Position numbers and translations under genes: made by a program. Below are positions 6,882-44,973 of a DNA stretch of 64,000 nucleotides, piece after piece (the stretch's first letter is position 1; every line of letters begins with the position of its first letter). Where the stretch lies: assembly GCF_050699375.1 (NCBI RefSeq), contig NZ_JBOHDN010000104.1:1151-65150 (forward strand). Direction: 5' to 3'. This stretch comes from Nocardioides sp. (GTDB lineage Bacteria; Actinomycetota; Actinomycetes; Propionibacteriales; Nocardioidaceae). The notes below the pieces were generated by a model. That model had not been told where the DNA came from and did not search any database. It worked only from the letters and a program-made list of their open reading frames with translations.

Positions 6882-8204
6882 TCAGGAAGCGGTCGCCGCG
6901 GTCACTGTCTGCAGCCGTCGTACGCCGGCAGGGTGCAGGCGGCGGCCGAGCAGGAGCACCGCCATGGCAGGCAGGTACATGACTGGAGCGAACTGCAGGG
7001 CGGTCAGCAGGCCGACCTGGTCCGCCAGGACCCCCACCACGAACGGACCGAGGGCCAGACCGAGCAGGTTGTTGGAGAGGGTCAGGGTGCCCATCGCGGT
7101 GGCGCGCACGGAGGCGTGGGTGAGACTCGCGACCATGGCGGCGGTCGGACCGGAGGAGCCGGCCGCGAAGAACGCGCCCAGCCCGATGAGGACTGACGCC
7201 CAGGTCCCGTTGTCCAGGTGGAAGCCGACCGGGAGACAGACCAGCGAGATGGTGCAGAAGGCGACCGCGGCGAGCCACTTGCGAGTGACGTCGCCGCGTC
7301 CCACCCGATCGGTGATCATCCCGCAGACGACCATGCCGCTGCCGATCAGCAGGACGAAGCCTGCGGCGGCCATCGCGGCCCGATCGGTGGCCATACCGTG
7401 GTAACGGTTGAAGAAGCTGGGCATCCAGGCAAGCATCACCGCGGCGGTGAACATCTGCAGGCCACCACCGACGTAGGCGCACAACACCGCGGGATTGGTG
7501 TAGAGGCTCGACAGCGGTGCCCGCAGCCGGCGTGAGGACATCCCAGGCTCGGTCTCCTCGATGTCCTTCTCGGCCCTGTGTGCGGCCAGCCTCCGCTCGC
7601 TCACCACGAGCCGGAAGACCGCGACCAGGAGCAGACCGAAGACGCCCATGGCCAGGAAGGACCAGCGCCAGCCGAGCTGGGTGGCGATGACGCCGCCCAG
7701 AACGACCCCGACGACGGACCCGAACGAGCCGCCGGCCATGAAGGCGCCGCTCAGCGTCGCATGCAGCCGCGGCGCGAAGACACTGAGCACCAGCGCGATG
7801 CCGACGCTCCCGTACGCGGCCTCACCCACGCCGACGAGGAACCGCGCAGCGAGCATCTGCTCGTAGTTGGCGGCCAGCGCGCAGAGCAGCGTGGCGATGC
7901 TCCACAGCACGGCCATGAGCACGAGGCTCCGGACCCGTCCCCAGCGGTCCGCCACGATGGACAGCGGCAGCGTGAGCAGCCCGACCATCAGCGCGACGAC
8001 ACTGCTCAGCGACGCCAGGTGGGAGTCGGAGAGAGCCCACTCGGTCTTGAGCACGGGGAACACGGCGCTGAGGACCTGGCGGGACATGTAGTCCGAGAGC
8101 AGCAGCCCGAAGGCGAGGGCGAACACGATCCAGGGGTAGGCGCTTCGCCGGGACGGGCCCGGCACCTGGACCGACGCGGTCACAACAGCATTATGCGTCG
8201 TCAT
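6882..8204 (-). CDS. MFS transporter
   Basis: 440 aa with about 12 hydrophobic segments and the MFS loop motif (ADRWGRVRS). Confidence 0.85.
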   Translation of the reverse strand: MTTHNAVVTASVQVPGPSRRSAYPWIVFALAFGLLLSDYMSRQVLSAVFPVLKTEWALSDSHLASLSSVVALMVGLLTLPLSIVADRWGRVRSLVLMAVLWSIATLLCALAANYEQMLAARFLVGVGEAAYGSVGIALVLSVFAPRLHATLSGAFMAGGSFGSVVGVVLGGVIATQLGWRWSFLAMGVFGLLLVAVFRLVVSERRLAAHRAEKDIEETEPGMSSRRLRAPLSSLYTNPAVLCAYVGGGLQMFTAAVMLAWMPSFFNRYHGMATDRAAMAAAGFVLLIGSGMVVCGMITDRVGRGDVTRKWLAAVAFCTISLVCLPVGFHLDNGTWASVLIGLGAFFAAGSSGPTAAMVASLTHASVRATAMGTLTLSNNLLGLALGPFVVGVLADQVGLLTALQFAPVMYLPAMAVLLLGRRLHPAGVRRLQTVTAATAS

Positions 8205-37126: not shown

Positions 37127-39196
37127 ATGGGTTCGAATTGGCGCGCCGATGTTCAGGGGCTCCGTGCCGTCGCTGTCGGTCTGGTGATCGCAGGGCACGC
37201 GGGGCTCGCGGGATTCGACGGTGGATTCGTCGGAGTGGACGTATTCTTCGTCCTCTCCGGGTTTCTGATCACCACACTCCTGCTGCGTGAGACCGACCGC
37301 AGCGGCCGCGTGAGCATCAGCCAGTTCTACGCCCGCCGCGCCCGCCGGATCCTGCCGGCGGCGACGGCGACGATGCTGGTCGTACTCGCTTACAGCGCCA
37401 TCGTGCTCCCCCAGACCCGCACCGATCAGATCGCCGGTGACGCTGGCTGGGCAGCGGTCTTCATGGCCAACGTCCACTTCGCCAGCGAGGCCGTCAACTA
37501 CTTCCACAACGCCGCGCCCTCGCCGTTCCAGCACTACTGGTCGCTCTCGGTCGAGGAGCAGTTCTACGTCGTCTGGCCGCTGCTGGTGCTGGCCGTCGCC
37601 CTCTGGATCCCGAAGCACCACCGTCGCCGCGCGATCACCGCCCTGGCCGCGCTGGTGGCGGTGATCAGCCTCGCCTGGTCCCTCCACATCACCGGCGTCG
37701 ACCCGGCCGCGGCCTACTTCTCCACCCCTGCCCGCGCCTTCGAGCTCGCGGCCGGCGCCCTGCTCGCCTGCGTCGCGGGGGTCTCGACAAGCTCGACCAC
37801 CGGGGCCGCAAGCTCGACCAAACGCGGGCGCCTCGTCGCAGCGGGCCTCGGAATCGCCGGCGTCGGCGCGCTCGTCTACGCCACCGCCAACTTCAGCGAA
37901 GCGACCCAGTTCCCCGGCTGGCACGCCCTGGTCCCGGTCGGCGGCACCGTCGCCCTCCTGTTGGCAGGCCCCAACACCCCGACCGGCTGGCTGCTCTCGA
38001 AGCAGCCGCTTCGCTACCTCGGCGACATCTCGTTCAGCCTCTACCTGTGGCACTGGCCGATCCTGATCCTCGCTCCCGAGGCGATCCCCGGCGGTGGCAC
38101 CCGCCAGCTGCTGATCATGATGGCGCTCATCCTGGCCGCCTCCGCAGCCAGCTATCACTGGATCGAGATGCCGTTCCAGCGCCACAAGCTCCCGCACCTG
38201 ACCAAGGGCCGCCGCGCGCTCGCGCTCTGGCCCGCCGCCGCTGCCCTCGCCCTGGTCGCGGGCACGAGCTCCCAGGCGTACGCCGGCTACCAGGTCGACG
38301 TCGCCAAGGCCAACGCCGAAGAGTGGTTCGCCGACAACCCGGAGGTTCTCGAGACCAAGGACAAGCCGGTCACGGGCGTGCTGAAGAAGACCATCAAGGC
38401 CGCCGAGGACGGTGCGCCGCTGCCCCCGAAGGCGGAGTTCGACGCCACCGACTCCTGGGCCGAGCGCGGCGGCTACTGCTATGCGGGCTACGGCGAGACC
38501 AAGCTCGACGGCGACTGCGTCTATGGCGACGGCAAGGGCAAGCGGACCGTGGCCGTCGTCGGCGACTCCCACATCGGGATGTGGCTGCCGGCGCTCGACA
38601 CCCTCGCCGAACGCCAGAACGTGAAGCTGGTCCCGTTCGTGAAGCTCGGTTGCGCTGCGTACGGAGTGAAGCAGAAGTCCTCGAAGATGACCGTCGAGGA
38701 GTGCGAGGACTTCCGGACGTGGACCAACAAACAGATCGCCGCGCTGAATCCGGACACGATCGTCGTCGGTGCCCGCGGCATGCTCGACATGGAGGAGCGC
38801 GACGGCGTCTCGACCGAGGAGCAGTGGCGTGAGGGCGTACGCGAGGGCGTCGGCGCCTTCGAGAAGGTCACCCCGGACGTACGCGTCTTCGCCGATGTCC
38901 CTGCCGTCGACAACGACCCCGGCGAGTGCCTCTCCGACGCCCGCAACCTCCTCGAGGACTGCGTGGTGTCGGCCAACGGCACCGAGGTCGACTCCAACGA
39001 GGTGACCCGAGAAGCGCTCGAGGGGACCCGGGCGGCGTACGTCGACATCGTCGATCTGGTCTGCACCGAGCGCTGCCCGCTCGTGGTCGGCGACACCGTC
39101 ACCTACTACGACGACTCGCACATCACCGCGACCTGGGTCAACCGGGTCACTCCGGCGCTCGGCCACCGCCTCGGCCGCCTGGACCGTCCCGCCTAG
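37127..39196 (+). CDS. acyltransferase-3 family membrane O-acyltransferase with C-terminal SGNH domain (OafA/YrhL-like)
   Basis: 689 aa. N-terminal ..GLRAVAVGLVIAGHAG.. and about 10 TM segments, plus a C-terminal extracytoplasmic domain (..VAVVGDSHIGMW..). Confidence 0.85.
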   Translation: MGSNWRADVQGLRAVAVGLVIAGHAGLAGFDGGFVGVDVFFVLSGFLITTLLLRETDRSGRVSISQFYARRARRILPAATATMLVVLAYSAIVLPQTRTDQIAGDAGWAAVFMANVHFASEAVNYFHNAAPSPFQHYWSLSVEEQFYVVWPLLVLAVALWIPKHHRRRAITALAALVAVISLAWSLHITGVDPAAAYFSTPARAFELAAGALLACVAGVSTSSTTGAASSTKRGRLVAAGLGIAGVGALVYATANFSEATQFPGWHALVPVGGTVALLLAGPNTPTGWLLSKQPLRYLGDISFSLYLWHWPILILAPEAIPGGGTRQLLIMMALILAASAASYHWIEMPFQRHKLPHLTKGRRALALWPAAAALALVAGTSSQAYAGYQVDVAKANAEEWFADNPEVLETKDKPVTGVLKKTIKAAEDGAPLPPKAEFDATDSWAERGGYCYAGYGETKLDGDCVYGDGKGKRTVAVVGDSHIGMWLPALDTLAERQNVKLVPFVKLGCAAYGVKQKSSKMTVEECEDFRTWTNKQIAALNPDTIVVGARGMLDMEERDGVSTEEQWREGVREGVGAFEKVTPDVRVFADVPAVDNDPGECLSDARNLLEDCVVSANGTEVDSNEVTREALEGTRAAYVDIVDLVCTERCPLVVGDTVTYYDDSHITATWVNRVTPALGHRLGRLDRPA

Positions 39197-39571
39197 AACC
39201 CGGCGCCGCCGGTGGTCGAGCGTGTCGGGGCCCGAGTTTGTCGAGACCCGGAACTGCCGAGACCCGCTCTCCCCAGCCATTGCCGTAGCGGGTGCCGAGC
39301 GGGAGAATCGAATGTTGCCGGGTGGGGCAGCATCCCCTCACCGCCCCACCCGGCCCACGCCTCGGGCCGCTCGGCGCAGGTCGGGCATCCCCCTCGTGCC
39401 CGTCCCGCGCCGCGGCCCGGAACCGCCAGCCCTCCCCCAAAGACTGCGGCGCAAGCGTCCGAACCGATTTTCCCCCGAATACCGGCCCGGACAGCCCCAA
39501 GGAGTACGCCGCGGGCGGCTTGATACACCGACTTCGAAAGGTTTTCGTGCCCGGCCGAATCGGCGCACCGA

Positions 39572-39668: not shown

Positions 39669-42107
39669 CTACGAGAAGCAGACGAACGGCGCTGGGGGCG
39701 CGTCCGCGGTCGCCGCGGGGAGGGCCTCGGCGAGTGCTTCGGCTGGCGCGAGGCCCTTCGCGAGGGCGTCATGGAGACGGCTGAACACGTTGTGTGCGGC
39801 CTCGTCCGCCACCACTGCGGGCGAGGCGATGACGGCACGGGCTCCGGCGTGGAGCCAGGCGCCGACCAGGCCGATCAGCTCCTCGCCCCAGCGGACGTTC
39901 GACCGTCCGACCTCGCAGGCGGAGAGAAGCACGACGTCGGGGACGGAGGCGAGGCCGTCGATGTCGTAGCCGTACCAGGTCCCGTCGGCGAGCTCGAGGC
40001 CGGAGAAGAGTGGGTTGTCGGCGGAGTGGTGGCCGTGGGCGGCCAGGTGGAGTACGTCGACCTCGGCTGCCAGCGCAGAGACGGCCGCTGCGGTGGCGTC
40101 GGCGCCGGTGAGCGTGAGCGCGCCGAGCCAGGCGGTGGCGCTCTTGGTGACCTCGTCTGCGGCGCGCATTACTCGTGGGCCGGCGACGAACCCGGCTGAC
40201 TTGGTACGCAACGGAGCTTCGGCGCGGTCCAGCCAGGCCGTGGCGCTCTGGGCAACCGTCACGGGGCGGCCGGTGAATCCGGGGAGCAGCGTCCACGGCA
40301 CCGTCGCCAATACGGCAGAAGGAGTCAGCACGACAGGCCGGTCGCCGATCCGCTCCATGATCGGTGCGACGAGCAGTGCCGACAGGTGTCGGAGTCTCGC
40401 GGTCAGATCGCCGCGTACGGCAGCACCGAGCGGGCCTGGGAGATCGGTAGCGGCGACATCGAGATCCGGCAGCAGGCCGCCCAGCAGTGATCCGAGTGCG
40501 GCATGGTCGCCGAGGTCGATCCGGGTGGCGGCGTCGTCGGTCGCGACGACGGCGACGATCCGGCCGGCGGCCACGACATAGGCAACGAGAGCATGACCTC
40601 CGATGCGTTCACGCAGATCCGGAAGCGTCACGGGATCCGAGACCTCGCCGGACCCCTTGACCCGCCAGGCACGCTGTCGGATCTGCTCACGCAGCTCGTT
40701 CTCACGCTCGGGTGTCACCTCACCACGGAGCTCGGCCAGGTCGGCGGCGAGCTGGGGGTCGGACGGCGGACGCACGGGCTGGACCCGCGAGGCCAGCATC
40801 CGCGCGCGCTCCGACCATTCGAAGAGCACCTCGGTCTCACCGGATTCGACGGCCAGGTCCAGGCCACGCCTGGCCAGAGTGCGGCCGTGCCCGGTCACGT
40901 TGGTCTGGAGGTCCAGACTGCCGAACGAGCTCTGCCACAGATGGAAGTCGTCCAGTCCCGCTCGGAGCTCGCGCAGGCCGGATGCGGGTCGACCGGACGC
41001 CATTGCCAGCTCGGCGCGCAGCTCTCGCTCCAGGAGGCGGACGTCGATCGGAGCCTCCGGCGGCACGGGGCCGATGACCCTGCCCCCGGCCTTGCTTCTC
41101 GGCGGCCCGGCGGTCTCCGCCGACCGGATCCGCGCGAGGCGCGCCTGCATCCGCACGCGCAACGCCGGCCAGCTCAGGCCTTGCTCCTCGAGCGGGACGG
41201 CCAACTCTTCGCCGTCGTCGGACGGTGCACCACCGGCCGTAACCGCCGCCTCGAACGCCACCGCCCGCGCCCGCAGGGCCAGCCCCGGCGCCTTGGCTTC
41301 TTCGAACCACCCCAGCGCCGAGCGCGCCACCCGTTCCGCTTCGGTCGGGTCGGTCGCCACCAGATGCGAGGCGAGCACGAGCTCCGCCTCCCCCTGCCGC
41401 TGCCGCTGAGCCTTCGATCCGTACGCCTCCGCCGCCTGCCGCAGCATCTCGCCACCCTGCCGCGTCAGGCCCGCCGCCATCAGCACCTCTGCCCGGTCGG
41501 CGTCGCACACCGCCTTCACCAGCGGCCCCGCTTCGGCCTGAAGATCGTACGACGACTCCATCAGCGCCAGTGCACCGACCAGATCGCCGGAGAGGAACAG
41601 CGCGTAGGCCCCATTGTGCTCGGCCTGGGCCGCCGCCAGATCGTTTCCGATAGTGCGATAGGTCTCAGCAGCCGCGGAAAAGTCAGCCGCGGCCATCGCA
41701 GGATCGTGTTGGTCCAGGTAGACGGTTCCCCGATTGAGATACGCGGCCCCGAGATCAACTGGGCTATCGGTCAGGCCGTCAATAACCTTGGTAAATACGG
41801 CCAGAGCCTCGGCAGCTCTGCCTGCTCGTCTTAGCAAGGTGGCTCGCTGTTGCAGAAGGGCCGCCTTGGTCGATGCTGCAAGGCCATCGGATCCGAGTGC
41901 CCGATCAAGCATTCCCAGCGCCTCATCGACATCGGACTGATCAGCTTCGATGTAGGCAAGAGTCGACTCCACGCGTGCCGAAAGCACAGGGTCAGCACGC
42001 TGGTTCGCGGTGGCACGTGCGTCCTCTAGGAGGCCGACCGCCTCGCTGAGATTGCCGGCGTTCATGGCCTCAACGGCCCGCCGATGCAGTTCCTCTGCCT
42101 CAACCAT
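39669..42107 (-). CDS. TPR-repeat plus CHAT-domain (caspase-like clan CD) protease, 812 aa, no signal peptide seen
   Basis: N-terminal half has TPR-like helical repeats (..AYLNRGTVYLDQHDPAMAAADFSAAAETYRTIG..). C-terminal CHAT domain has a His/Cys dyad (..VLHLAAHGHH.. and ..VVLLSACEVG..). The ATG at 42107 lies 5 nt after the S8 stop. Confidence 0.85.
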   Translation of the reverse strand: MVEAEELHRRAVEAMNAGNLSEAVGLLEDARATANQRADPVLSARVESTLAYIEADQSDVDEALGMLDRALGSDGLAASTKAALLQQRATLLRRAGRAAEALAVFTKVIDGLTDSPVDLGAAYLNRGTVYLDQHDPAMAAADFSAAAETYRTIGNDLAAAQAEHNGAYALFLSGDLVGALALMESSYDLQAEAGPLVKAVCDADRAEVLMAAGLTRQGGEMLRQAAEAYGSKAQRQRQGEAELVLASHLVATDPTEAERVARSALGWFEEAKAPGLALRARAVAFEAAVTAGGAPSDDGEELAVPLEEQGLSWPALRVRMQARLARIRSAETAGPPRSKAGGRVIGPVPPEAPIDVRLLERELRAELAMASGRPASGLRELRAGLDDFHLWQSSFGSLDLQTNVTGHGRTLARRGLDLAVESGETEVLFEWSERARMLASRVQPVRPPSDPQLAADLAELRGEVTPERENELREQIRQRAWRVKGSGEVSDPVTLPDLRERIGGHALVAYVVAAGRIVAVVATDDAATRIDLGDHAALGSLLGGLLPDLDVAATDLPGPLGAAVRGDLTARLRHLSALLVAPIMERIGDRPVVLTPSAVLATVPWTLLPGFTGRPVTVAQSATAWLDRAEAPLRTKSAGFVAGPRVMRAADEVTKSATAWLGALTLTGADATAAAVSALAAEVDVLHLAAHGHHSADNPLFSGLELADGTWYGYDIDGLASVPDVVLLSACEVGRSNVRWGEELIGLVGAWLHAGARAVIASPAVVADEAAHNVFSRLHDALAKGLAPAEALAEALPAATADAPPAPFVCFS

Positions 42108-42112
42108 GGTTA

Positions 42113-43663
42113 CTACTCGGTAACTGGCCGGAGCGTGGTCAGCATCTCCAACGCCGACCACGCGCGCCCCATATCCTGCTCCAGATCGCCGGGATGTCCG
42201 TTCTCGAGGAGGTGCTGCGCAATTCGACCAGCAAGCAATGGCGCCGCGAAGGACGTTCCACTCCAAGTGCCGAAGCCACCGGTGAAGTCGTCAGGATCGA
42301 GCGACGCTCGGACACGACCGATGTGCTCGATCTCCTTACCGGGTTGATATCCGCCGTCGAAGGTAGTCGGCAAGGTACTCACCACGCCTGCTCCGATCTC
42401 ATGTGCCCGGATCCACGGTCCCGCGTTCGAGAAGAGCGCGTCAGTACGCCGATTTGGATTGAGCGCCCCAACCGAGACGATGGGCAGAACATCGGCCTGC
42501 GGATCGACTGGTCCACGGCCGTCACTCCAAGGAGCGAACGCGGCAGGAAACAGCGGACGGGCGGTCGCCTCATTGCCCGCGGAACAGACGACCAGCGTCC
42601 CGTTGGCGGACAGATCGGCCAAGATCTCATACAACGTGGGATCAAAGAGGGCGTCCTCCGGCGTCTCGTGGTAGTAGCCCATCGATAGATTCAAGATGTC
42701 GATGCGTCGACCGCGTGGGTCACCGACCCGATAGAGGTGGACGAGCTCTGCGATCTGAGCGAGCGCAGTGATCCAGTCCATCTCGGCGATCGGCCCGTCC
42801 GGAGGCACGATACGCCAGGACAAAATCTCGGCATCCGGACAGGCCTGATGAATCAGCCCCGCGATGAACGTCCCGTGGCCCGCCATCGCGTCGATGACAC
42901 CGTCGAGGGGACCGACCTGATCCTCGTCGATCTCCGAGTCTGGTGCGGAGCTGGGCCAACCAATCGGATGACCGTCAAGGCGCGCATCGGACTCGACGAA
43001 ATCGAGCCATGGATGAGGGCCGCATCCAGTGTCGAGAACCGCCACCACCGGACGGAGGTCTCCATCCAGCTCATCATCGCTCCGACGACGAGGCGGCAGA
43101 CCTACAAACGCGACGGGTTGGCGCCCACCTGTGCCGAGGGGGTCATAGTCGTCGTCACCTGTACCGCGGTTATGCGGAGTGCCTATGTTGTGAGGAGTGC
43201 CAATGTTGTGAGGAGTGCCGCGATTGTGAGGATCTGACCCGACTGTCGGATCCGGCGTCAACACGTGCTCCAAGCTGACCCCGTACGCGCCGTCTGGGCC
43301 GTCAGCGCGCAGGACCTGCAGAACTGTCCACGCATCCGGGGCTTGGACTGCTTGACCGGGAATGACCCCGAGCCGGACCCTTCGGACACCGAATCGTAGG
43401 CCGGTTGCGCACTCCGGCTCAGGTTCGAGTTCGGCCCGCCATCCCAGACGTCGAGCTGCCTTTTCTATGCGGCTGAACCTGCCTTTTAGATTCGCGGACT
43501 TCGAGACGAGAAGAGCAGCCGAGGAGTACACCGTCGAATGTGCTGTCACTCCGTCGACGGCTATCGCATGGGACGGGTTCAGCACACGAGCTTCGCGGGA
43601 GCCGTAGGTGATCTCCAGCAATGGTTCTCGCCAGCGATGCCCAGGCTTGGGGGCTGTACTCAC
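42113..43663 (-). CDS. S8 (subtilisin-like) serine peptidase, 516 aa, no signal peptide or TM segment seen
   Basis: Asp VAVLDTGCG, His AGHGTFIAG, Asn NLSMGY, Ser SGTSFAAP. GTG start with GGAG upstream. About 150 aa of unassigned N-terminal domain, followed by a GTPHNx repeat linker. Confidence 0.85.
   Translation of the reverse strand: MSTAPKPGHRWREPLLEITYGSREARVLNPSHAIAVDGVTAHSTVYSSAALLVSKSANLKGRFSRIEKAARRLGWRAELEPEPECATGLRFGVRRVRLGVIPGQAVQAPDAWTVLQVLRADGPDGAYGVSLEHVLTPDPTVGSDPHNRGTPHNIGTPHNIGTPHNRGTGDDDYDPLGTGGRQPVAFVGLPPRRRSDDELDGDLRPVVAVLDTGCGPHPWLDFVESDARLDGHPIGWPSSAPDSEIDEDQVGPLDGVIDAMAGHGTFIAGLIHQACPDAEILSWRIVPPDGPIAEMDWITALAQIAELVHLYRVGDPRGRRIDILNLSMGYYHETPEDALFDPTLYEILADLSANGTLVVCSAGNEATARPLFPAAFAPWSDGRGPVDPQADVLPIVSVGALNPNRRTDALFSNAGPWIRAHEIGAGVVSTLPTTFDGGYQPGKEIEHIGRVRASLDPDDFTGGFGTWSGTSFAAPLLAGRIAQHLLENGHPGDLEQDMGRAWSALEMLTTLRPVTE
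43169..43240. repeat. 18-bp tandem repeat x4 (last copy degenerate) inside the S8 gene, encoding (GTPHN[IR]) hexapeptides
   Basis: gttatgcggagtgcctat / gttgtgaggagtgccaat / gttgtgaggagtgccgcg / attgtgaggatctgaccc. Protein reads DPHNRGTPHNIGTPHNIGTPHNRGTGDDD. Confidence 0.8.
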
Positions 43664-43672
43664 AACTTCTCC

Positions 43673-44185
43673 TCAGATCTCGAACGTGGGGGTGAGGAAG
43701 GCCGAGGTGCCGTCGGCGGGCTCGAAGCGGAGCCGGATGAGGCCGGCGGGCAACGAGGTGAGCTCGAAGCGACCCGAGGCTCCGAGAGTGACGGCGACGA
43801 TCGGCGTACGGACGTCGTCGGCGCGTATGGCGCGGACGGTCATTGGGGCGCCGGGGACGACCCAGCCGTCGAGGCGGGCGGTGGTGTCGGAGTCGGAGGC
43901 GACGCGCACGAGCACGTCGACGCCGGACTGCGCGAAGCGCAGCGTGTAGGCCGAGCGGGCGGAGGCGGGGGCGGCGGAGCGTACGCCGGCGGCCTCGGCA
44001 CCCGACGAAGACTCGACCAGGAGCATCAGCTCCAGATCGAGCCCGAGGCCGGACTCCTCCGCGGCGCCGGCGGCGGCAGCCTGCATCCGGGAGATCAGGC
44101 CTCCGGGAACAGGGTCGCCCGATGCGTACGCCTGCCGGACCAGACCCAACAACTCATCGCGAGTGGGCTCCTCCGAGCGACCCAT
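43673..44185 (-). CDS. 170-aa protein of unknown function, translationally coupled to the ECF sigma gene (candidate non-canonical anti-sigma factor or protease substrate)
   Basis: Its ATG (44183-44185) shares one nucleotide with the sigma TGA (44185-44187). High GC3. No TM helix or HxxxCxxC motif seen. Beta-rich C-terminal half. Confidence 0.6.
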   Translation of the reverse strand: MGRSEEPTRDELLGLVRQAYASGDPVPGGLISRMQAAAAGAAEESGLGLDLELMLLVESSSGAEAAGVRSAAPASARSAYTLRFAQSGVDVLVRVASDSDTTARLDGWVVPGAPMTVRAIRADDVRTPIVAVTLGASGRFELTSLPAGLIRLRFEPADGTSAFLTPTFEI

Positions 44186-44787
44186 CACGACACCTCCCCT
44201 TCGTCGAGCAGTGCGTCCCGCAGCTTCCCGAGACAGCGGCCGCGGGTGGGGCCGATGCTGCCGATGGGCATCTCGAGCTCTTCGGCCAGACCGGCATAGT
44301 CGGGCCGGTGGTCGAAGGCGACCACGCGCAACAGCCGTCGGCACCGCTCGGGCAGGCCCTCCACGGCCGCCCAGATGCGTGAGTTGCGGTCGCCTTCGAC
44401 GACGACGGACTCCGCCGATCGCTGTGTCGGGACCCTGGACTCGAGGGCGTCGTCCTCCACGGGTACGTCGCGGGCAGATCGCTTCGCGACGCGCCACGCC
44501 TCTCGGCGCGTGGTGAGCGTGAGCCAGGCGCCGACGGCGGCGGTGTCGAGGATCGAGGAGTGCTTGCGTACGAAGGAGAGCCAGGTGTTCTGGACGACAT
44601 CCTCGGCCTGCTCCTGGGAGAGCCGGTAGGAGCGGGCGACCTGCCACAGGACCGGAGTCATCGTGGCGACCAGCTCGTCCAGGGCGGCGGAGTCGCCGCT
44701 GAGCCAGCGGTCGAAGTCGGCGGTGGCCCGGGACCATACGGTCGCGGGCGCGTCAGCGTGACCCACCCCGCGGCCTACCCGTGTCAC
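44185..44787 (-). CDS. ECF-type sigma-70 family RNA polymerase sigma factor (200 aa from GTG 44787; alternative ATG starts at 44862 and 44874)
   Basis: Region 2 ..LDELVATMTPVLWQVARSYRLSQEQAEDVVQNTWLSFVR.. and region 4 ..LPERCRRLLRVVAFDHRPDYAGLAEELEMPIGSIGPTRGRCLGKLR... GAGGAGGAG lies 3 nt before the GTG. Confidence 0.85.
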   Translation of the reverse strand: MTRVGRGVGHADAPATVWSRATADFDRWLSGDSAALDELVATMTPVLWQVARSYRLSQEQAEDVVQNTWLSFVRKHSSILDTAAVGAWLTLTTRREAWRVAKRSARDVPVEDDALESRVPTQRSAESVVVEGDRNSRIWAAVEGLPERCRRLLRVVAFDHRPDYAGLAEELEMPIGSIGPTRGRCLGKLRDALLDEGEVS

Positions 44788-44946
44788 AGTCTCCTCCTCG
44801 ACCGGCGGCCTCCGGATCGGCGCCGAGCCGGTGGGGGGCCAGATGGCACGCGGGCGCGCCATCGTGGTGGTCATAGTTGCTGTCACGCCTTGAAGGAGCC
44901 CCTCGCTCCGGCCGTGATACATCTGCCCGCCGACAATAGCGTCTCT

Positions 44947-44973
44947 ACGCAACAGACTCACTAGGTGTTCGCA
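44947..44973 (-). promoter_or_regulatory. candidate ECF-type promoter GCGAAC-N17-CGTA upstream of the sigma gene
   Basis: Minus-strand reading of 44973-44947 gives GCGAAC ACCTAGTGAGTCTGTTG CGTA. This resembles the GGAAC-N16/17-CGT pattern of autoregulated ECF promoters. It is a single weak match. Confidence 0.25.

What the first reader, a model, noticed from the sequence alone, without database searches (positions are those of the whole stretch)
39669..44973. Four-gene coupled operon: ECF sigma factor, 170-aa partner, signal-less S8 subtilase, TPR-CHAT caspase-like protease
**Seen in the sequence: coupling.**
- Four minus-strand genes have almost no spacing.
- The sigma TGA (44185-44187) shares a base with the ATG of the 170-aa ORF.
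- A 9-nt gap separates that ORF from the GTG of the S8 gene, with GGAG upstream.
- A 5-nt gap separates the S8 TAG from the CHAT ATG at 42107.

**Seen in the sequence: proteases.**
- The S8 protein has the complete Asp/His/Asn/Ser set (VAVLDTGCG, AGHGTFIAG, NLSMGY, SGTSFAAP).
- The CHAT protein has the His/Cys dyad (HLAAHGHH, LLSACEVG) behind a long TPR-like region.
- I see no signal peptide or hydrophobic helix in either protease or in the 170-aa protein, so all appear cytoplasmic.

**Established knowledge.**
- ECF sigmas are normally paired with a cognate anti-sigma factor.
- CHAT domains are clan CD proteases. Their characterised bacterial roles are conflict or cell-death related: the TPR-CHAT of type III-E CRISPR systems and the proteases that activate gasdermins.
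- To my knowledge, no sigma-factor-linked S8 plus CHAT module has been characterised.

**Inference.** Either of two models fits.
- A two-protease cascade controls the sigma factor by destroying the 170-aa partner, in an envelope-stress context. The operon sits between an OafA-like acyltransferase and the FemX / racemase / GT87 / PBP genes.
- A sigma-controlled intracellular proteolytic effector acts as a defence or programmed-death module.

A weak GCGAAC-N17-CGTA ECF-like promoter lies upstream at 44947-44973.
Basis: partly seen in the sequence, partly recalled or inferred. Interest (0 to 1): 0.85.

Follow-up and report, generated by a model that had tools for sequence, protein, structure and literature searches.

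The report
Sigma factor operon with two proteases
A conserved actinobacterial operon joins a sigma factor that appears to switch on its own operon, and its small partner protein, to two cytoplasmic proteases; the gene set was already catalogued as ECF54, but it has never been tested and has a fast-diverging peptide-repeat cassette that I did not find described.

Summary
Four tightly coupled minus-strand genes encode an ECF sigma factor, a 170-aa partner (p170), an S8 subtilase and a TPR-CHAT protease. All catalytic residues are intact, and no signal peptide or membrane helix is present.

The gene set is conserved in about 65 Nocardioides loci, in Microbacteriaceae and, in permuted order, in Nonomuraea. 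A 2022 review already lists this context (carboxypeptidase-regulatory-like, subtilase and CHAT proteins) for group ECF54. It proposes control by proteolysis, with no experiments.

New findings here:
- **Promoter.** A conserved GTATCA-N16/17-CTCCT promoter is followed by an in-frame leaderless GTG in 64/64 sigma-bearing loci. A second copy lies after the CHAT gene.
- **Zymogen.** S8 has a pro-subtilisin-like N-terminal domain.
- **Repeat array.** The array follows the prodomain: 71/80 orthologues have at least 3 tandem copies of a lineage-specific hexapeptide.
- **Fast cassette.** S8 plus the first ~200 CHAT codons diverge 6-9 times faster at synonymous sites than the flanks.
- **Sigma-less clade.** Sixteen loci lack the sigma gene but keep the promoter.

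Best model: a protease-gated sigma/anti-sigma switch resembling the CRISPR-linked CHAT-sigma modules, with an unknown, probably conflict-related trigger. The envelope-stress link is not supported.

The parts
44883..44920 (-). Promoter P1: GTATCA (44920-44915), 16-nt spacer, CTCCT (44898-44894), 7 nt, then GTGA (44886-44883), whose GTG (44886-44884) is the start codon of the sigma gene.
   Evidence: Found once upstream of the sigma gene in 64/64 sigma-bearing loci, including Microbacteriaceae L082 and L083. The PWM score is 32.0. Only 2 hits occur in the 64-kb window against 0.2 expected from shuffles.
44185..44886 (-). ECF sigma factor gene, 233 aa, read from a leaderless GTG. It is the probable ECF54-type member.
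   Evidence: TIGR02937 E = 8.7e-16 and Sigma70_r2. The GTG after P1 is in frame with no stop in 64/64 loci. The Nonomuraea sigma is 50% identical.
43673..44185 (-). p170: three N-terminal helices, a disordered linker (residues 59-74), a seven-strand beta-sandwich, and an invariant C-terminal TPxFEI-COOH. It is the candidate anti-sigma or protease substrate.
   Evidence: AF2 pLDDT 81. Only generic Ig-like fold matches. Family alignment A2. It directly follows the sigma gene in all three orders examined. There are 446 representative clusters at E<1e-10.
42113..43663 (-). S8 subtilase, 516 aa, cytoplasmic, with zymogen architecture.
   Evidence: Peptidase_S8 E = 4.4e-17. D211, H263 and S471 are invariant; N364 is nearly invariant. 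AF2 pTM 0.84. Full-length Foldseek alignments are to unprocessed pro-subtilisins, PCSK9 and S1P.
43259..43591 (-). S8 N-terminal prodomain-like module (residues 25-135, beta-alpha-beta-beta-alpha-beta) ending in the conserved L(E/D)HV.
   Evidence: No Pfam hit, even at E<=10.
43160..43231 (-). Tandem hexapeptide array PHN[RI]GT x4 (S8 residues 145-168) inside the disordered linker.
   Evidence: TRF finds an 18-nt period. 71/80 orthologues have at least 3 copies of a lineage-specific unit, and the rest have 2.
41500..43663 (-). Fast-diverging cassette: the whole S8 gene plus about the first 200 codons (TPR) of the CHAT gene.
   Evidence: Among 18 close genomes, nucleotide identity is 0.56-0.79 here against mostly 0.88-0.95 on the sigma side. 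dS is 1.3-1.9 against 0.2, with dN/dS 0.09-0.22. GC3 is 0.67 against 0.91-0.94. The same pattern appears in six other clades.
39669..42107 (-). TPR-CHAT protease, 812 aa. The CHAT domain spans residues 571-796 (nt 39720-40397). The dyad is H691 (40035-40037) and C731 (39915-39917).
   Evidence: CHAT E = 7.9e-27. The dyad is invariant. The profile matches only TPR proteins in the PDB over residues 2-223.
39500..39526 (-). Promoter P2: a second GTATCA-N16-CTCCT copy, 143 nt after the CHAT stop, on the same strand.
   Evidence: PWM score 20.4 (true sites range 17.7-32.5). A copy sits at the equivalent place in most sigma-bearing loci and in L083.
39295..39492 (-). Conserved non-coding stretch behind P2, ending in a strong hairpin before the convergent acyltransferase gene. 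It is a candidate sigma-dependent small RNA, or a relic of the small ORF found here in other clades.
   Evidence: Conserved, with indels that are not multiples of 3, in 18 genomes. Minimum free energy -127 kcal/mol, z = -5.05. No Rfam match above noise.

Best explanation
This is a self-contained cytoplasmic signalling module of the catalogued but untested ECF54 type. I read it as a protease-gated sigma/anti-sigma switch with positive feedback.

**Shown**
- The sigma gene sits behind a deeply conserved ECF-like promoter and starts at a leaderless GTG.
- The same motif recurs once more, directly after the CHAT gene.
- p170 always follows the sigma gene.
- S8 has a pro-subtilisin-like N-terminal domain, followed by a disordered linker that carries identical tandem hexapeptides.
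- S8 plus the first TPR segment of the CHAT protein diverge as one fast, co-varying cassette.

**Inferred**
1. The sigma factor recognises P1 and P2.
2. The three-helix head of p170 holds the sigma factor.
3. S8 is made as a latent zymogen.
4. The TPR array of the CHAT protein docks on short linear peptides. Candidates are the hexapeptide array of S8, via the variable N-terminal TPRs, and possibly the invariant FEI-COOH tail of p170.
5. An unknown trigger activates CHAT, which cuts the array or the p170 linker.
6. S8 matures and p170 is destroyed.
7. The freed sigma factor amplifies its own operon from P1 and expresses the variable cargo behind P2.

The P2 cargo differs by lineage:
- a structured non-coding transcript in this window;
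- a ~99-aa protein in most other Nocardioides clades;
- a papain-like protease in Rhodoglobus.

The fast-diverging cassette suggests that the input or the internal recognition pair is under conflict-type selection, from phage or from competitors.
For: - **Coupling and domains:**
- **Conservation across three orders:**. The sigma-p170 adjacency is kept even where S8 has moved.
- **Promoter P1:** the motif and an in-frame leaderless GTG occur in 64/64 sigma-bearing loci.
- **Promoter P2:** a second site lies after the CHAT gene in most sigma-bearing loci and in L083.
- **p170:** three helices, a disordered linker and a beta-sandwich.
- **S8:** alignments to unprocessed pro-subtilisins cover about 470-530 columns.
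- **Hexapeptide arrays:** present in 71/80 orthologues. The unit type tracks TPR 1-200 identity at fixed background relatedness, 77% against 48%.
- **Cassette divergence:**
- **Precedents:** Csx29 cleaves Csx30 to release CASP-sigma (PMC10028731). The SAVED-CHAT to PCaspase cascade has an operon-encoded sigma factor and a small inhibitor, and CalpL/T/S is similar (bioRxiv 10.1101/2023.06.23.546230).
- **ECF54:** proteolytic control has been proposed for this group (PMC8999054).
Against: - No step of the cascade was tested, and no complex could be modelled.
- p170 has no detectable similarity to any known anti-sigma domain.
- ECF54 is described in the literature as lacking an anti-sigma factor.
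- Sixteen loci have lost the sigma gene yet keep p170, S8, CHAT and the promoter. The trio therefore has a role that does not need a cis-encoded sigma factor.
- Linkage alone could explain why the repeat unit and the TPR segment co-vary.
- The promoter assignment rests on conservation and geometry only.
- There is no PADLOC hit and no defence-island context.
Confidence: 0.4

Rival explanations
1. Effector model. The sigma factor only drives expression, and the two proteases are the output: an intracellular proteolytic effector for abortive infection, programmed death or kin discrimination. In this reading p170 is an inhibitor or chaperone of S8 rather than an anti-sigma factor.
For: - The p170-S8-CHAT trio persists without a cis-encoded sigma gene in 16 loci.
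- The cassette shows conflict-like fast divergence.
- A third, papain-like protease sits behind P2 in Rhodoglobus.
- The beta-sandwich of p170 recalls small protease inhibitors. The Bacillus intracellular proteinase inhibitor appears in the Foldseek list, but only at probability 0.38.
- PCi in the Haliangium operon is a protease inhibitor.
Against: - The sigma-p170 adjacency with an overlapping stop and start is kept in three orders, even where S8 has moved away. That pattern is typical of sigma/anti-sigma pairs.
- p170 is as conserved as the sigma factor, whereas S8 is hypervariable. That is unexpected for a tight inhibitor-enzyme pair.
- There is no PADLOC match.
Confidence: 0.25
2. Sigma-degradation model, as suggested in the literature for ECF54. 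There is no anti-sigma factor. The proteases keep the system off by degrading the sigma factor itself, and p170 acts as an adaptor.
For: - The review states this for ECF54 (PMC8999054).
- The sigma factor has a variable, low-complexity N-terminal extension of about 50-70 aa that could act as a degron.
Against: - It does not explain the zymogen architecture, the hexapeptide array or the fast cassette.
- The proteases are made from the same sigma-dependent transcript. Constitutive degradation would fight the conserved positive autoregulation.
Confidence: 0.12
3. Envelope-stress module functionally tied to the neighbouring cell-wall genes (FemX-like, racemase-like, GT87, PBP, acyltransferase).
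For: The position next to these genes is fixed across about 65 Nocardioides loci.
Against: - Flanks are unrelated in Microbacteriaceae and Nonomuraea.
- No promoter motif lies upstream of the neighbours. The only window hits are P1 and P2.
- All four proteins are cytoplasmic.
- The acyltransferase gene occurs only in the window's clade.
Confidence: 0.04
4. Ordinary secreted proteases that merely sit beside a sigma factor gene.
For: S8 enzymes with prodomains are usually secreted (established knowledge).
Against: - There is no signal peptide, lipobox or membrane segment in the window proteins, and the N-termini of the homologues are variable and charged.
- The four-gene association holds across three orders.
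Confidence: 0.02

Closest known systems
ECF54 group of ECF sigma factors (Huang et al. 2015; Casas-Pastor et al. 2021; reviewed in PMC8999054)
   Same: It is actinobacterial, has no recognisable anti-sigma factor, and has a conserved genomic context of carboxypeptidase(-regulatory-like), subtilase and CHAT proteins. That is exactly p170, S8 and CHAT here.
   Different: - The literature I could read only lists the context and proposes proteolysis.
- I found no description of the promoter, the leaderless start, the second promoter, the zymogen architecture, the hexapeptide array, the fast cassette or the sigma-less clade.
- The original paper (PMC4518836) was not available to me, so a predicted promoter there cannot be excluded.
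Type III-E CRISPR Craspase module: TPR-CHAT Csx29, Csx30, Csx31 and the ECF sigma factor CASP-sigma (PMC10028731)
   Same: A TPR-CHAT protease is encoded with an ECF sigma factor and a two-domain partner whose N-terminal part binds and inhibits that sigma factor. Cleavage of the partner relieves the inhibition, and sigma target sites lie in the locus itself.
   Different: - There is no Cas7-11, crRNA or CRISPR array here.
- The partner is 170 aa rather than 565 aa and is unrelated in sequence.
- A second protease of another class (S8) is present.
- The profile of the CHAT protein gave only TPR hits in the PDB and no Csx29 match.
Haliangium type III-B SAVED-CHAT to PCaspase cascade, with PCc-sigma, PCi and PCk (bioRxiv 10.1101/2023.06.23.546230)
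   Same: It has two proteases in series, plus an operon-encoded sigma factor and a small regulatory protein. A CHAT protease activates the second protease by cleavage.
   Different: - The sensor there is a SAVED domain that binds cA3, whereas here it is a TPR array with an unknown ligand.
- The second protease there is a caspase-like enzyme, not a subtilase.
- There is no kinase here.
CalpL-CalpT-CalpS (type III-B)
   Same: [quoted passage not shown]
   Different: That system uses a Lon-type SAVED protease driven by cyclic oligoadenylate.
Pro-subtilisins and intracellular subtilisins (pro-Tk-subtilisin 2e1p, pro-subtilisin E 3whi, the Bacillus clausii ISP precursor 2wwt)
   Same: An N-terminal beta-alpha-beta-beta-alpha-beta prodomain packs on the catalytic domain, the catalytic residues are intact, and the enzyme is cytoplasmic like the ISPs.
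   Different: - A 48-residue disordered linker carrying identical tandem hexapeptides lies between the prodomain and the enzyme.
- There is no Pfam Inhibitor_I9 match.
- The gene is hypervariable between close species.

Membership tests
ECF (group IV) sigma-70 factors | Sigma-2 and sigma-4 regions only, matching the family profile above its cut-off | tested here: met
   TIGR02937 scores 58 bits against a cut-off of 42.9. Sigma70_r2 scores 31.8 against 24.
ECF54 group | Conserved neighbours carrying carboxypeptidase(-regulatory-like), subtilase and CHAT domains, with no canonical anti-sigma factor; actinobacterial | tested here: met
   - The context was verified in about 65 sigma-bearing Nocardioides loci, 2 Microbacteriaceae loci and Nonomuraea.
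- p170 gives a faint CarboxypepD_reg hit, and UniRef names relatives accordingly.
- The definition is taken from PMC8999054.
ECF54 group | The sigma sequence scores best against the ECF54 group HMM of the ECF classification | not testable with these tools
   No ECF-group HMM library was available. NCBIfam gave only generic or below-cut-off subfamily hits.
Peptidase S8 (subtilases) | Asp-His-Ser triad in that order, plus the oxyanion Asn, aligned to the profile | tested here: met
   PF00082 E = 4.4e-17. D211, H263 and S471 are invariant; N364 is nearly invariant.
Pro-subtilisin (I9-type prodomain) zymogens | N-terminal beta-alpha-beta-beta-alpha-beta prodomain packed on the catalytic domain | tested here: inconclusive
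   The fold and the full-length Foldseek alignments agree. However, there is no Pfam I9 hit, TM-scores are low because of disordered loops, and inhibition or processing was not tested.
CHAT (clan CD, caspase-like) peptidases | CHAT profile match with the His/Cys dyad conserved | tested here: met
   PF12770 scores 94.9 bits against a cut-off of 24. H691 and C731 are invariant.
Type III-E Craspase (Csx29) | Association with Cas7-11/gRAMP, Csx30 and Csx31 | tested here: not met
   Nothing Cas-related is annotated in the called neighbours. There are no PADLOC hits for the four proteins, and the CHAT profile gave no Csx29 hit in the PDB sequence search. I did not run a CRISPR-array search on the window.
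Anti-sigma factors (anti-sigma-domain-containing) | A recognisable anti-sigma domain (zf-HC2, RskA, NepR and similar), or demonstrated sigma binding | tested here: not met
   There is no Pfam, NCBIfam or PDB similarity. Binding could not be tested. This lowers the claim that p170 is a member of a known anti-sigma family, not the claim that it acts like one.
Known anti-phage defence systems (PADLOC-DB 2.0) | Significant match to a defence-system protein model | tested here: not met
   Only weak subtilase hits: 3.6e-4 for a generic subtilase and 8e-3 for IetS. There was nothing for CHAT, p170 or sigma.

The most novel reading that the evidence does not exclude
The S8/TPR cassette is a polymorphic lock-and-key pair. 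The perfectly repeated, lineage-specific hexapeptide array acts as a peptide barcode read by the hypervariable N-terminal TPRs of the CHAT protease. It is possibly cut after its conserved Asp/Asn/Glu position. The whole module is then a chromosomally fixed innate-immunity or self/non-self protease switch whose output is an ECF sigma programme. That would be a CRISPR-independent relative of the Craspase-type CHAT-sigma circuits.
Probability: 0.2. Interest if true: 0.85.

Novelty: new variant of a known kind. Interest (0 to 1): 0.62.

Why it matters
- **A test case for ECF54.** ECF54 is one of the ECF groups for which no regulator is known. A defined promoter, a candidate sigma-binding partner and a two-protease unit with predicted cleavage substrates make its regulation directly testable.
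- **A wider design principle.** If the model holds, the "CHAT protease frees a sigma factor" logic found in type III CRISPR systems would be a general principle that also works without CRISPR. The p170 family alone has 446 representative clusters at E<1e-10.
- **An evolutionary oddity.** A core-genome locus contains a 2-kb segment that diverges several-fold faster than its flanks while staying under purifying selection. It carries concertedly evolving hexapeptide arrays. That is the signature of recognition loci.
- **A practical point.** Public gene calls truncate both protease genes, so the prodomain, the repeat array and the first TPRs are missed.

Tried and rejected
- **Casas-Pastor 2021.** The main text mentions neither CHAT nor subtilase, and no supplement is held. 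Its text links ECF54 to a 4Fe-4S protein. That was not seen at this locus and I did not pursue it.
- **Huang et al. 2015** is not held.
- **Sequence searches.** A PDB sequence search for the sigma factor, p170 and the ~99-aa protein gave nothing usable. A Pfam scan of the S8 N-domain and the ~99-aa protein at E<=10 gave nothing.
- **Apparent sigma-p170 fusions.** Those in the representative library are patchy, frameshifted metagenome calls, not real fusions.
- **Sigma remnant.** I looked for a remnant of the sigma gene in the leader of the sigma-less loci and found only noise. The short leaderless ORF there is not consistently in frame.
- **Chagasin-like idea.** I suspected that the ~99-aa protein is a chagasin-like (I42) inhibitor. 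No search supports this, so I dropped it.
- **Rfam.** Nothing was found across 36-48 kb.
- **Sigma-70 and terminator scans.** These found nothing beyond chance.
- **Plasmid and phage searches.** These returned only distant CHAT-domain hits.
- **Ancient alleles imported from distant clades.** I rejected this as the sole cause of the cassette divergence. Within-clade S8 alleles (68-76%) remain closer to each other than to other clades (~45-55%). Local mosaicism does exist, however (L020/L026).

Full report
**1. The observation**

| Gene | Coordinates | Length |
|---|---|---|
| TPR-CHAT | 39669-42107 | 812 aa |
| S8 | 42113-43663 | 516 aa |
| p170 | 43673-44185 | 170 aa |
| sigma | ends at 44185 | see section 4 |

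- The junctions are exactly as described: a TGATG stop/start overlap, a 9-nt gap holding GGAG, and a 5-nt gap.
- Profile searches confirm CHAT (E = 7.9e-27), Peptidase_S8 (4.4e-17) and an ECF sigma factor (TIGR02937, 8.7e-16). p170 has only a faint CarboxypepD_reg hit.
- The CHAT dyad H691/C731 is invariant in 19 homologues.
- S8 D211, H263 and S471 are invariant and N364 is nearly invariant in 44 homologues.
N364 in CSAGNEAT is.
- A hydropathy scan finds no signal-peptide-like N-terminus. The only strongly hydrophobic 19-mer is a conserved internal beta-strand-like stretch of the CHAT protein.

**2. Is the quartet conserved?**

Yes.

- A scan of one genome per species found 223 genomes with a CHAT relative. 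The 80 best were all Nocardioides or Nocardioidaceae.
- In every locus long enough, p170, S8 and CHAT are adjacent. They sit at one chromosomal position: GT87 / racemase-like / FemX-like on one side and an AP endonuclease on the other.
- In Nocardioides sp. JS614 this position lies near rpsF-ssb-rpsR-rplI-dnaB.
- The same four genes, with unrelated flanks, occur in Salinibacterium and Rhodoglobus (Microbacteriaceae). Their small protein is 33-36% identical to p170.
- In Nonomuraea gerenzanensis the order is S8, sigma (50% identical), a p170-like ORF (profile E = 1e-19), then CHAT (32%). The sigma-p170 pair therefore stays together even where S8 has moved.
- A profile search with p170 finds 446 representative clusters at E<1e-10. 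Named members come from Cellulomonas, Actinotalea, Branchiibius and Microbacterium.
- The module was not found on plasmids or phages. It has no significant PADLOC match.

**3. What is already known**

- A 2022 review states that ECF54 sigma factors have a conserved context of carboxypeptidase, subtilase and CHAT domain proteins and lack an anti-sigma factor. Control by proteolysis has been proposed but not tested (PMC8999054).
- Casas-Pastor et al. also list ECF54 among the groups without a clear regulator.
- The gene association is therefore catalogued. I found no experimental work on it.
- Mechanistic precedents exist elsewhere:
  - The type III-E TPR-CHAT protease Csx29 cleaves Csx30, which binds and inhibits the ECF sigma factor CASP-sigma.
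  - In Haliangium, SAVED-CHAT activates a second protease, PCaspase, in an operon that also encodes a sigma factor and a small inhibitor.
  - CalpL cleaves the anti-sigma-like CalpT, which is bound to CalpS.

**4. New anatomy: promoters**

- Upstream of the sigma gene, all 64 sigma-bearing loci carry GTATCA-N16/17-CTCCT-N6/7-GTGA. This includes both Microbacteriaceae loci.
- The GTG is in frame with the sigma ORF, with no intervening stop, in 64/64 loci, although the N-terminal extensions differ in length and sequence.
- I read this as an ECF-type -35/-10 pair driving a leaderless sigma mRNA. In the window the sigma gene is then 44185-44886 (233 aa).
- A position-weight scan finds only two hits in the 64-kb window, against 0.2 in shuffles. 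These are P1 and a second copy at 39526-39500, 143 nt after the CHAT stop on the same strand.
- Equivalent second copies occur in most sigma-bearing loci. What follows them varies:
  - In 37 loci it is a ~95-100-aa ORF of no known family.
  - In Rhodoglobus it is a papain-like C1 peptidase gene.
  - In the window's clade it is a conserved non-coding stretch of about 190 nt with frame-breaking indels. It folds into four strong hairpins (z = -5.05) and ends before the convergent acyltransferase gene.

**5. New anatomy: proteins**

- **p170** is modelled (pLDDT 81) as three helices (9-22, 30-44, 48-60), a disordered linker (59-74) and a seven-strand beta-sandwich. Fold matches are only generic Ig-like sandwiches. 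Its C-terminus TPxFEI is invariant and ends the protein.
- **S8** (pTM 0.84) has an N-terminal beta-alpha-beta-beta-alpha-beta domain (residues 25-135) and a disordered stretch (138-185). The Foldseek alignments that span nearly the whole model are to unprocessed pro-subtilisins, PCSK9 and site-1 protease. The domain ends in a conserved L(E/D)HV, which resembles the C-terminal EEDHV of classical subtilisin propeptides (my own knowledge).
- **Repeat array.** In the disordered stretch, 71 of 80 orthologues carry 3-8 identical tandem copies of a hexapeptide. Microbacteriaceae carry a pentapeptide instead. The other nine orthologues have two copies.
  - The unit is lineage-specific: PHNRGT here, and PFDVSH, PLHDSN, PLNDPH, PWDVPH and PFGMT elsewhere.
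  - Most units share the pattern Pro, then a hydrophobic, aromatic or His residue, with an Asp, Asn or Glu one or two positions later.

**6. New evolution: a fast cassette**

Among 18 species whose flanking genes are about 90-95% identical, protein identity varies sharply by segment:

| Segment | Median identity |
|---|---|
| p170 | 94% |
| sigma | 91% |
| S8 prodomain | 65% |
| S8 linker | 62% |
| S8 catalytic domain | 78% |
| CHAT 1-200 | 59% |
| CHAT 201-812 | 88-90% |

- Nucleotide identity drops from mostly 0.88-0.95 to 0.56-0.79 between about 43,660 and 41,500. The edge at the p170/S8 junction is sharp.
- Synonymous divergence is 1.3-1.9 in the cassette against about 0.2 in the flanks, while dN/dS stays at 0.09-0.22.
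- GC3 is 0.67 against 0.91-0.94 in the neighbours.
- All pairs are affected, not just the window strain. Six other Nocardioides clades show the same hot-spot.
- In the JS614 clade, dN/dS rises to 0.36-0.49 over CHAT 1-400.
- At equal background relatedness, pairs that share the repeat unit have far more similar TPR 1-200 and S8 sequences (77% against 48% for TPR). The cassette behaves as one co-inherited, and possibly co-evolving, allele.
- There are signs of mosaic exchange (L020/L026).
- I cannot separate balancing or diversifying selection with recombination from a locally raised substitution rate.

**7. The sigma-less clade**

- Sixteen loci in two sub-clades lack the sigma gene. FemX is followed by the intact promoter motif, a 160-250-nt leader with no recognisable sigma remnant, then p170, S8 and CHAT.
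- Either a related sigma factor is encoded elsewhere in those genomes, or another factor uses this promoter.
- This observation most weakens a simple "p170 is only the anti-sigma" reading.

**8. Interpretation**

- The best-supported reading (about 0.4) is a protease-gated sigma/anti-sigma switch with positive feedback. It is analogous to the CRISPR-linked CHAT-sigma circuits, but it stands alone and uses a pro-subtilase as the second protease.
- The steps that are shown and those that are inferred are listed under the best explanation.
- The main rival (about 0.25) is that the proteases are the effector and p170 is their inhibitor.
- The literature's sigma-degradation idea (about 0.12) does not explain the zymogen, the array or the cassette.
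- The envelope-stress link and a secreted-protease reading are poorly supported.

**9. Verdict**

- It is experimentally untouched. The features found here (autoregulatory leaderless promoter, second promoter with variable cargo, zymogen with a concertedly evolving hexapeptide array, fast co-varying S8/TPR cassette) make it a distinct, testable variant of the protease-controlled sigma modules.
- Interest: 0.62.

Noticed in passing
L035, L038, L045, L049, L051, L054, L057, L061, L063, L069, L074-L076, L078, L080 (about 7500-7900 in each full-length locus): A Nocardioides sub-lineage has lost the sigma gene in situ. It keeps GTATCA-N16-CTCCT, a 160-250-nt leader with conserved blocks (for example CAAGGACAGCACGACGGTGGACCTCGCACCGATGACCCAGCC) and the p170-S8-CHAT trio. 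The leader could be a regulatory 5' UTR.
   Followed up: partly
window 39295-39526 (minus strand): A second promoter copy is followed by a conserved, apparently non-coding ~190-nt stretch that folds into four strong hairpins (z = -5.05). It is a candidate sigma-dependent small RNA, and it would run antisense towards the 3' end of the acyltransferase gene.
   Followed up: partly
L001:12571-12870 and the equivalent place in 36 other loci: A ~95-100-aa ORF of no known family lies directly after CHAT behind the second promoter (conserved motifs DPxxG, SRW, F.FLVF, PLRLVR). It is absent from the window's clade.
   Followed up: partly
L083:12100-12667: In Rhodoglobus the second promoter precedes a papain-like C1 cysteine peptidase gene (catalytic motif CGSCVAF). 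It is cut off by the contig end and would be a third protease class in the module.
   Followed up: no
window 37127-39196: The OafA-like acyltransferase gene between CHAT and the AP endonuclease occurs only in the window's close clade (about 89% identity there). It is absent at that place in all other Nocardioides loci, so it looks like a clade-specific insertion that may have displaced the small ORF.
   Followed up: no
window 41500-43663: GC3 falls to 0.53-0.74 in S8 and to 0.66 in the first 600 nt of the CHAT gene, against 0.91-0.94 in the neighbours. JS614 does not share the drop (GC3 0.93-0.94), although its cassette also diverges fast.
   Followed up: partly
window 42113-43663 and 39669-42107: Public gene calls for this very sequence are truncated: S8 is called as 310 aa (P0242) and CHAT as 675 aa (P0001). 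Many database homologues are likewise cut to about 310-360 aa or 613-677 aa. The prodomain, the repeat array and the first TPRs are therefore missed, although they are conserved at the protein level.
   Followed up: partly
window about 44950-44962 (minus strand), FemX-sigma intergenic region: A block CCTAGTGAGTC is conserved in most genomes of the window's close clade, just upstream of P1. It may belong to the divergent FemX promoter or be an operator.
   Followed up: no
L016:11200-12400; L020 against L026: There is further mosaicism. The C-terminal half of the L016 CHAT protein is only 70-74% identical to its clade, where others are about 90%. L020 and L026 share an 86-91% identical cassette but only 70% identical FemX.
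   Followed up: no
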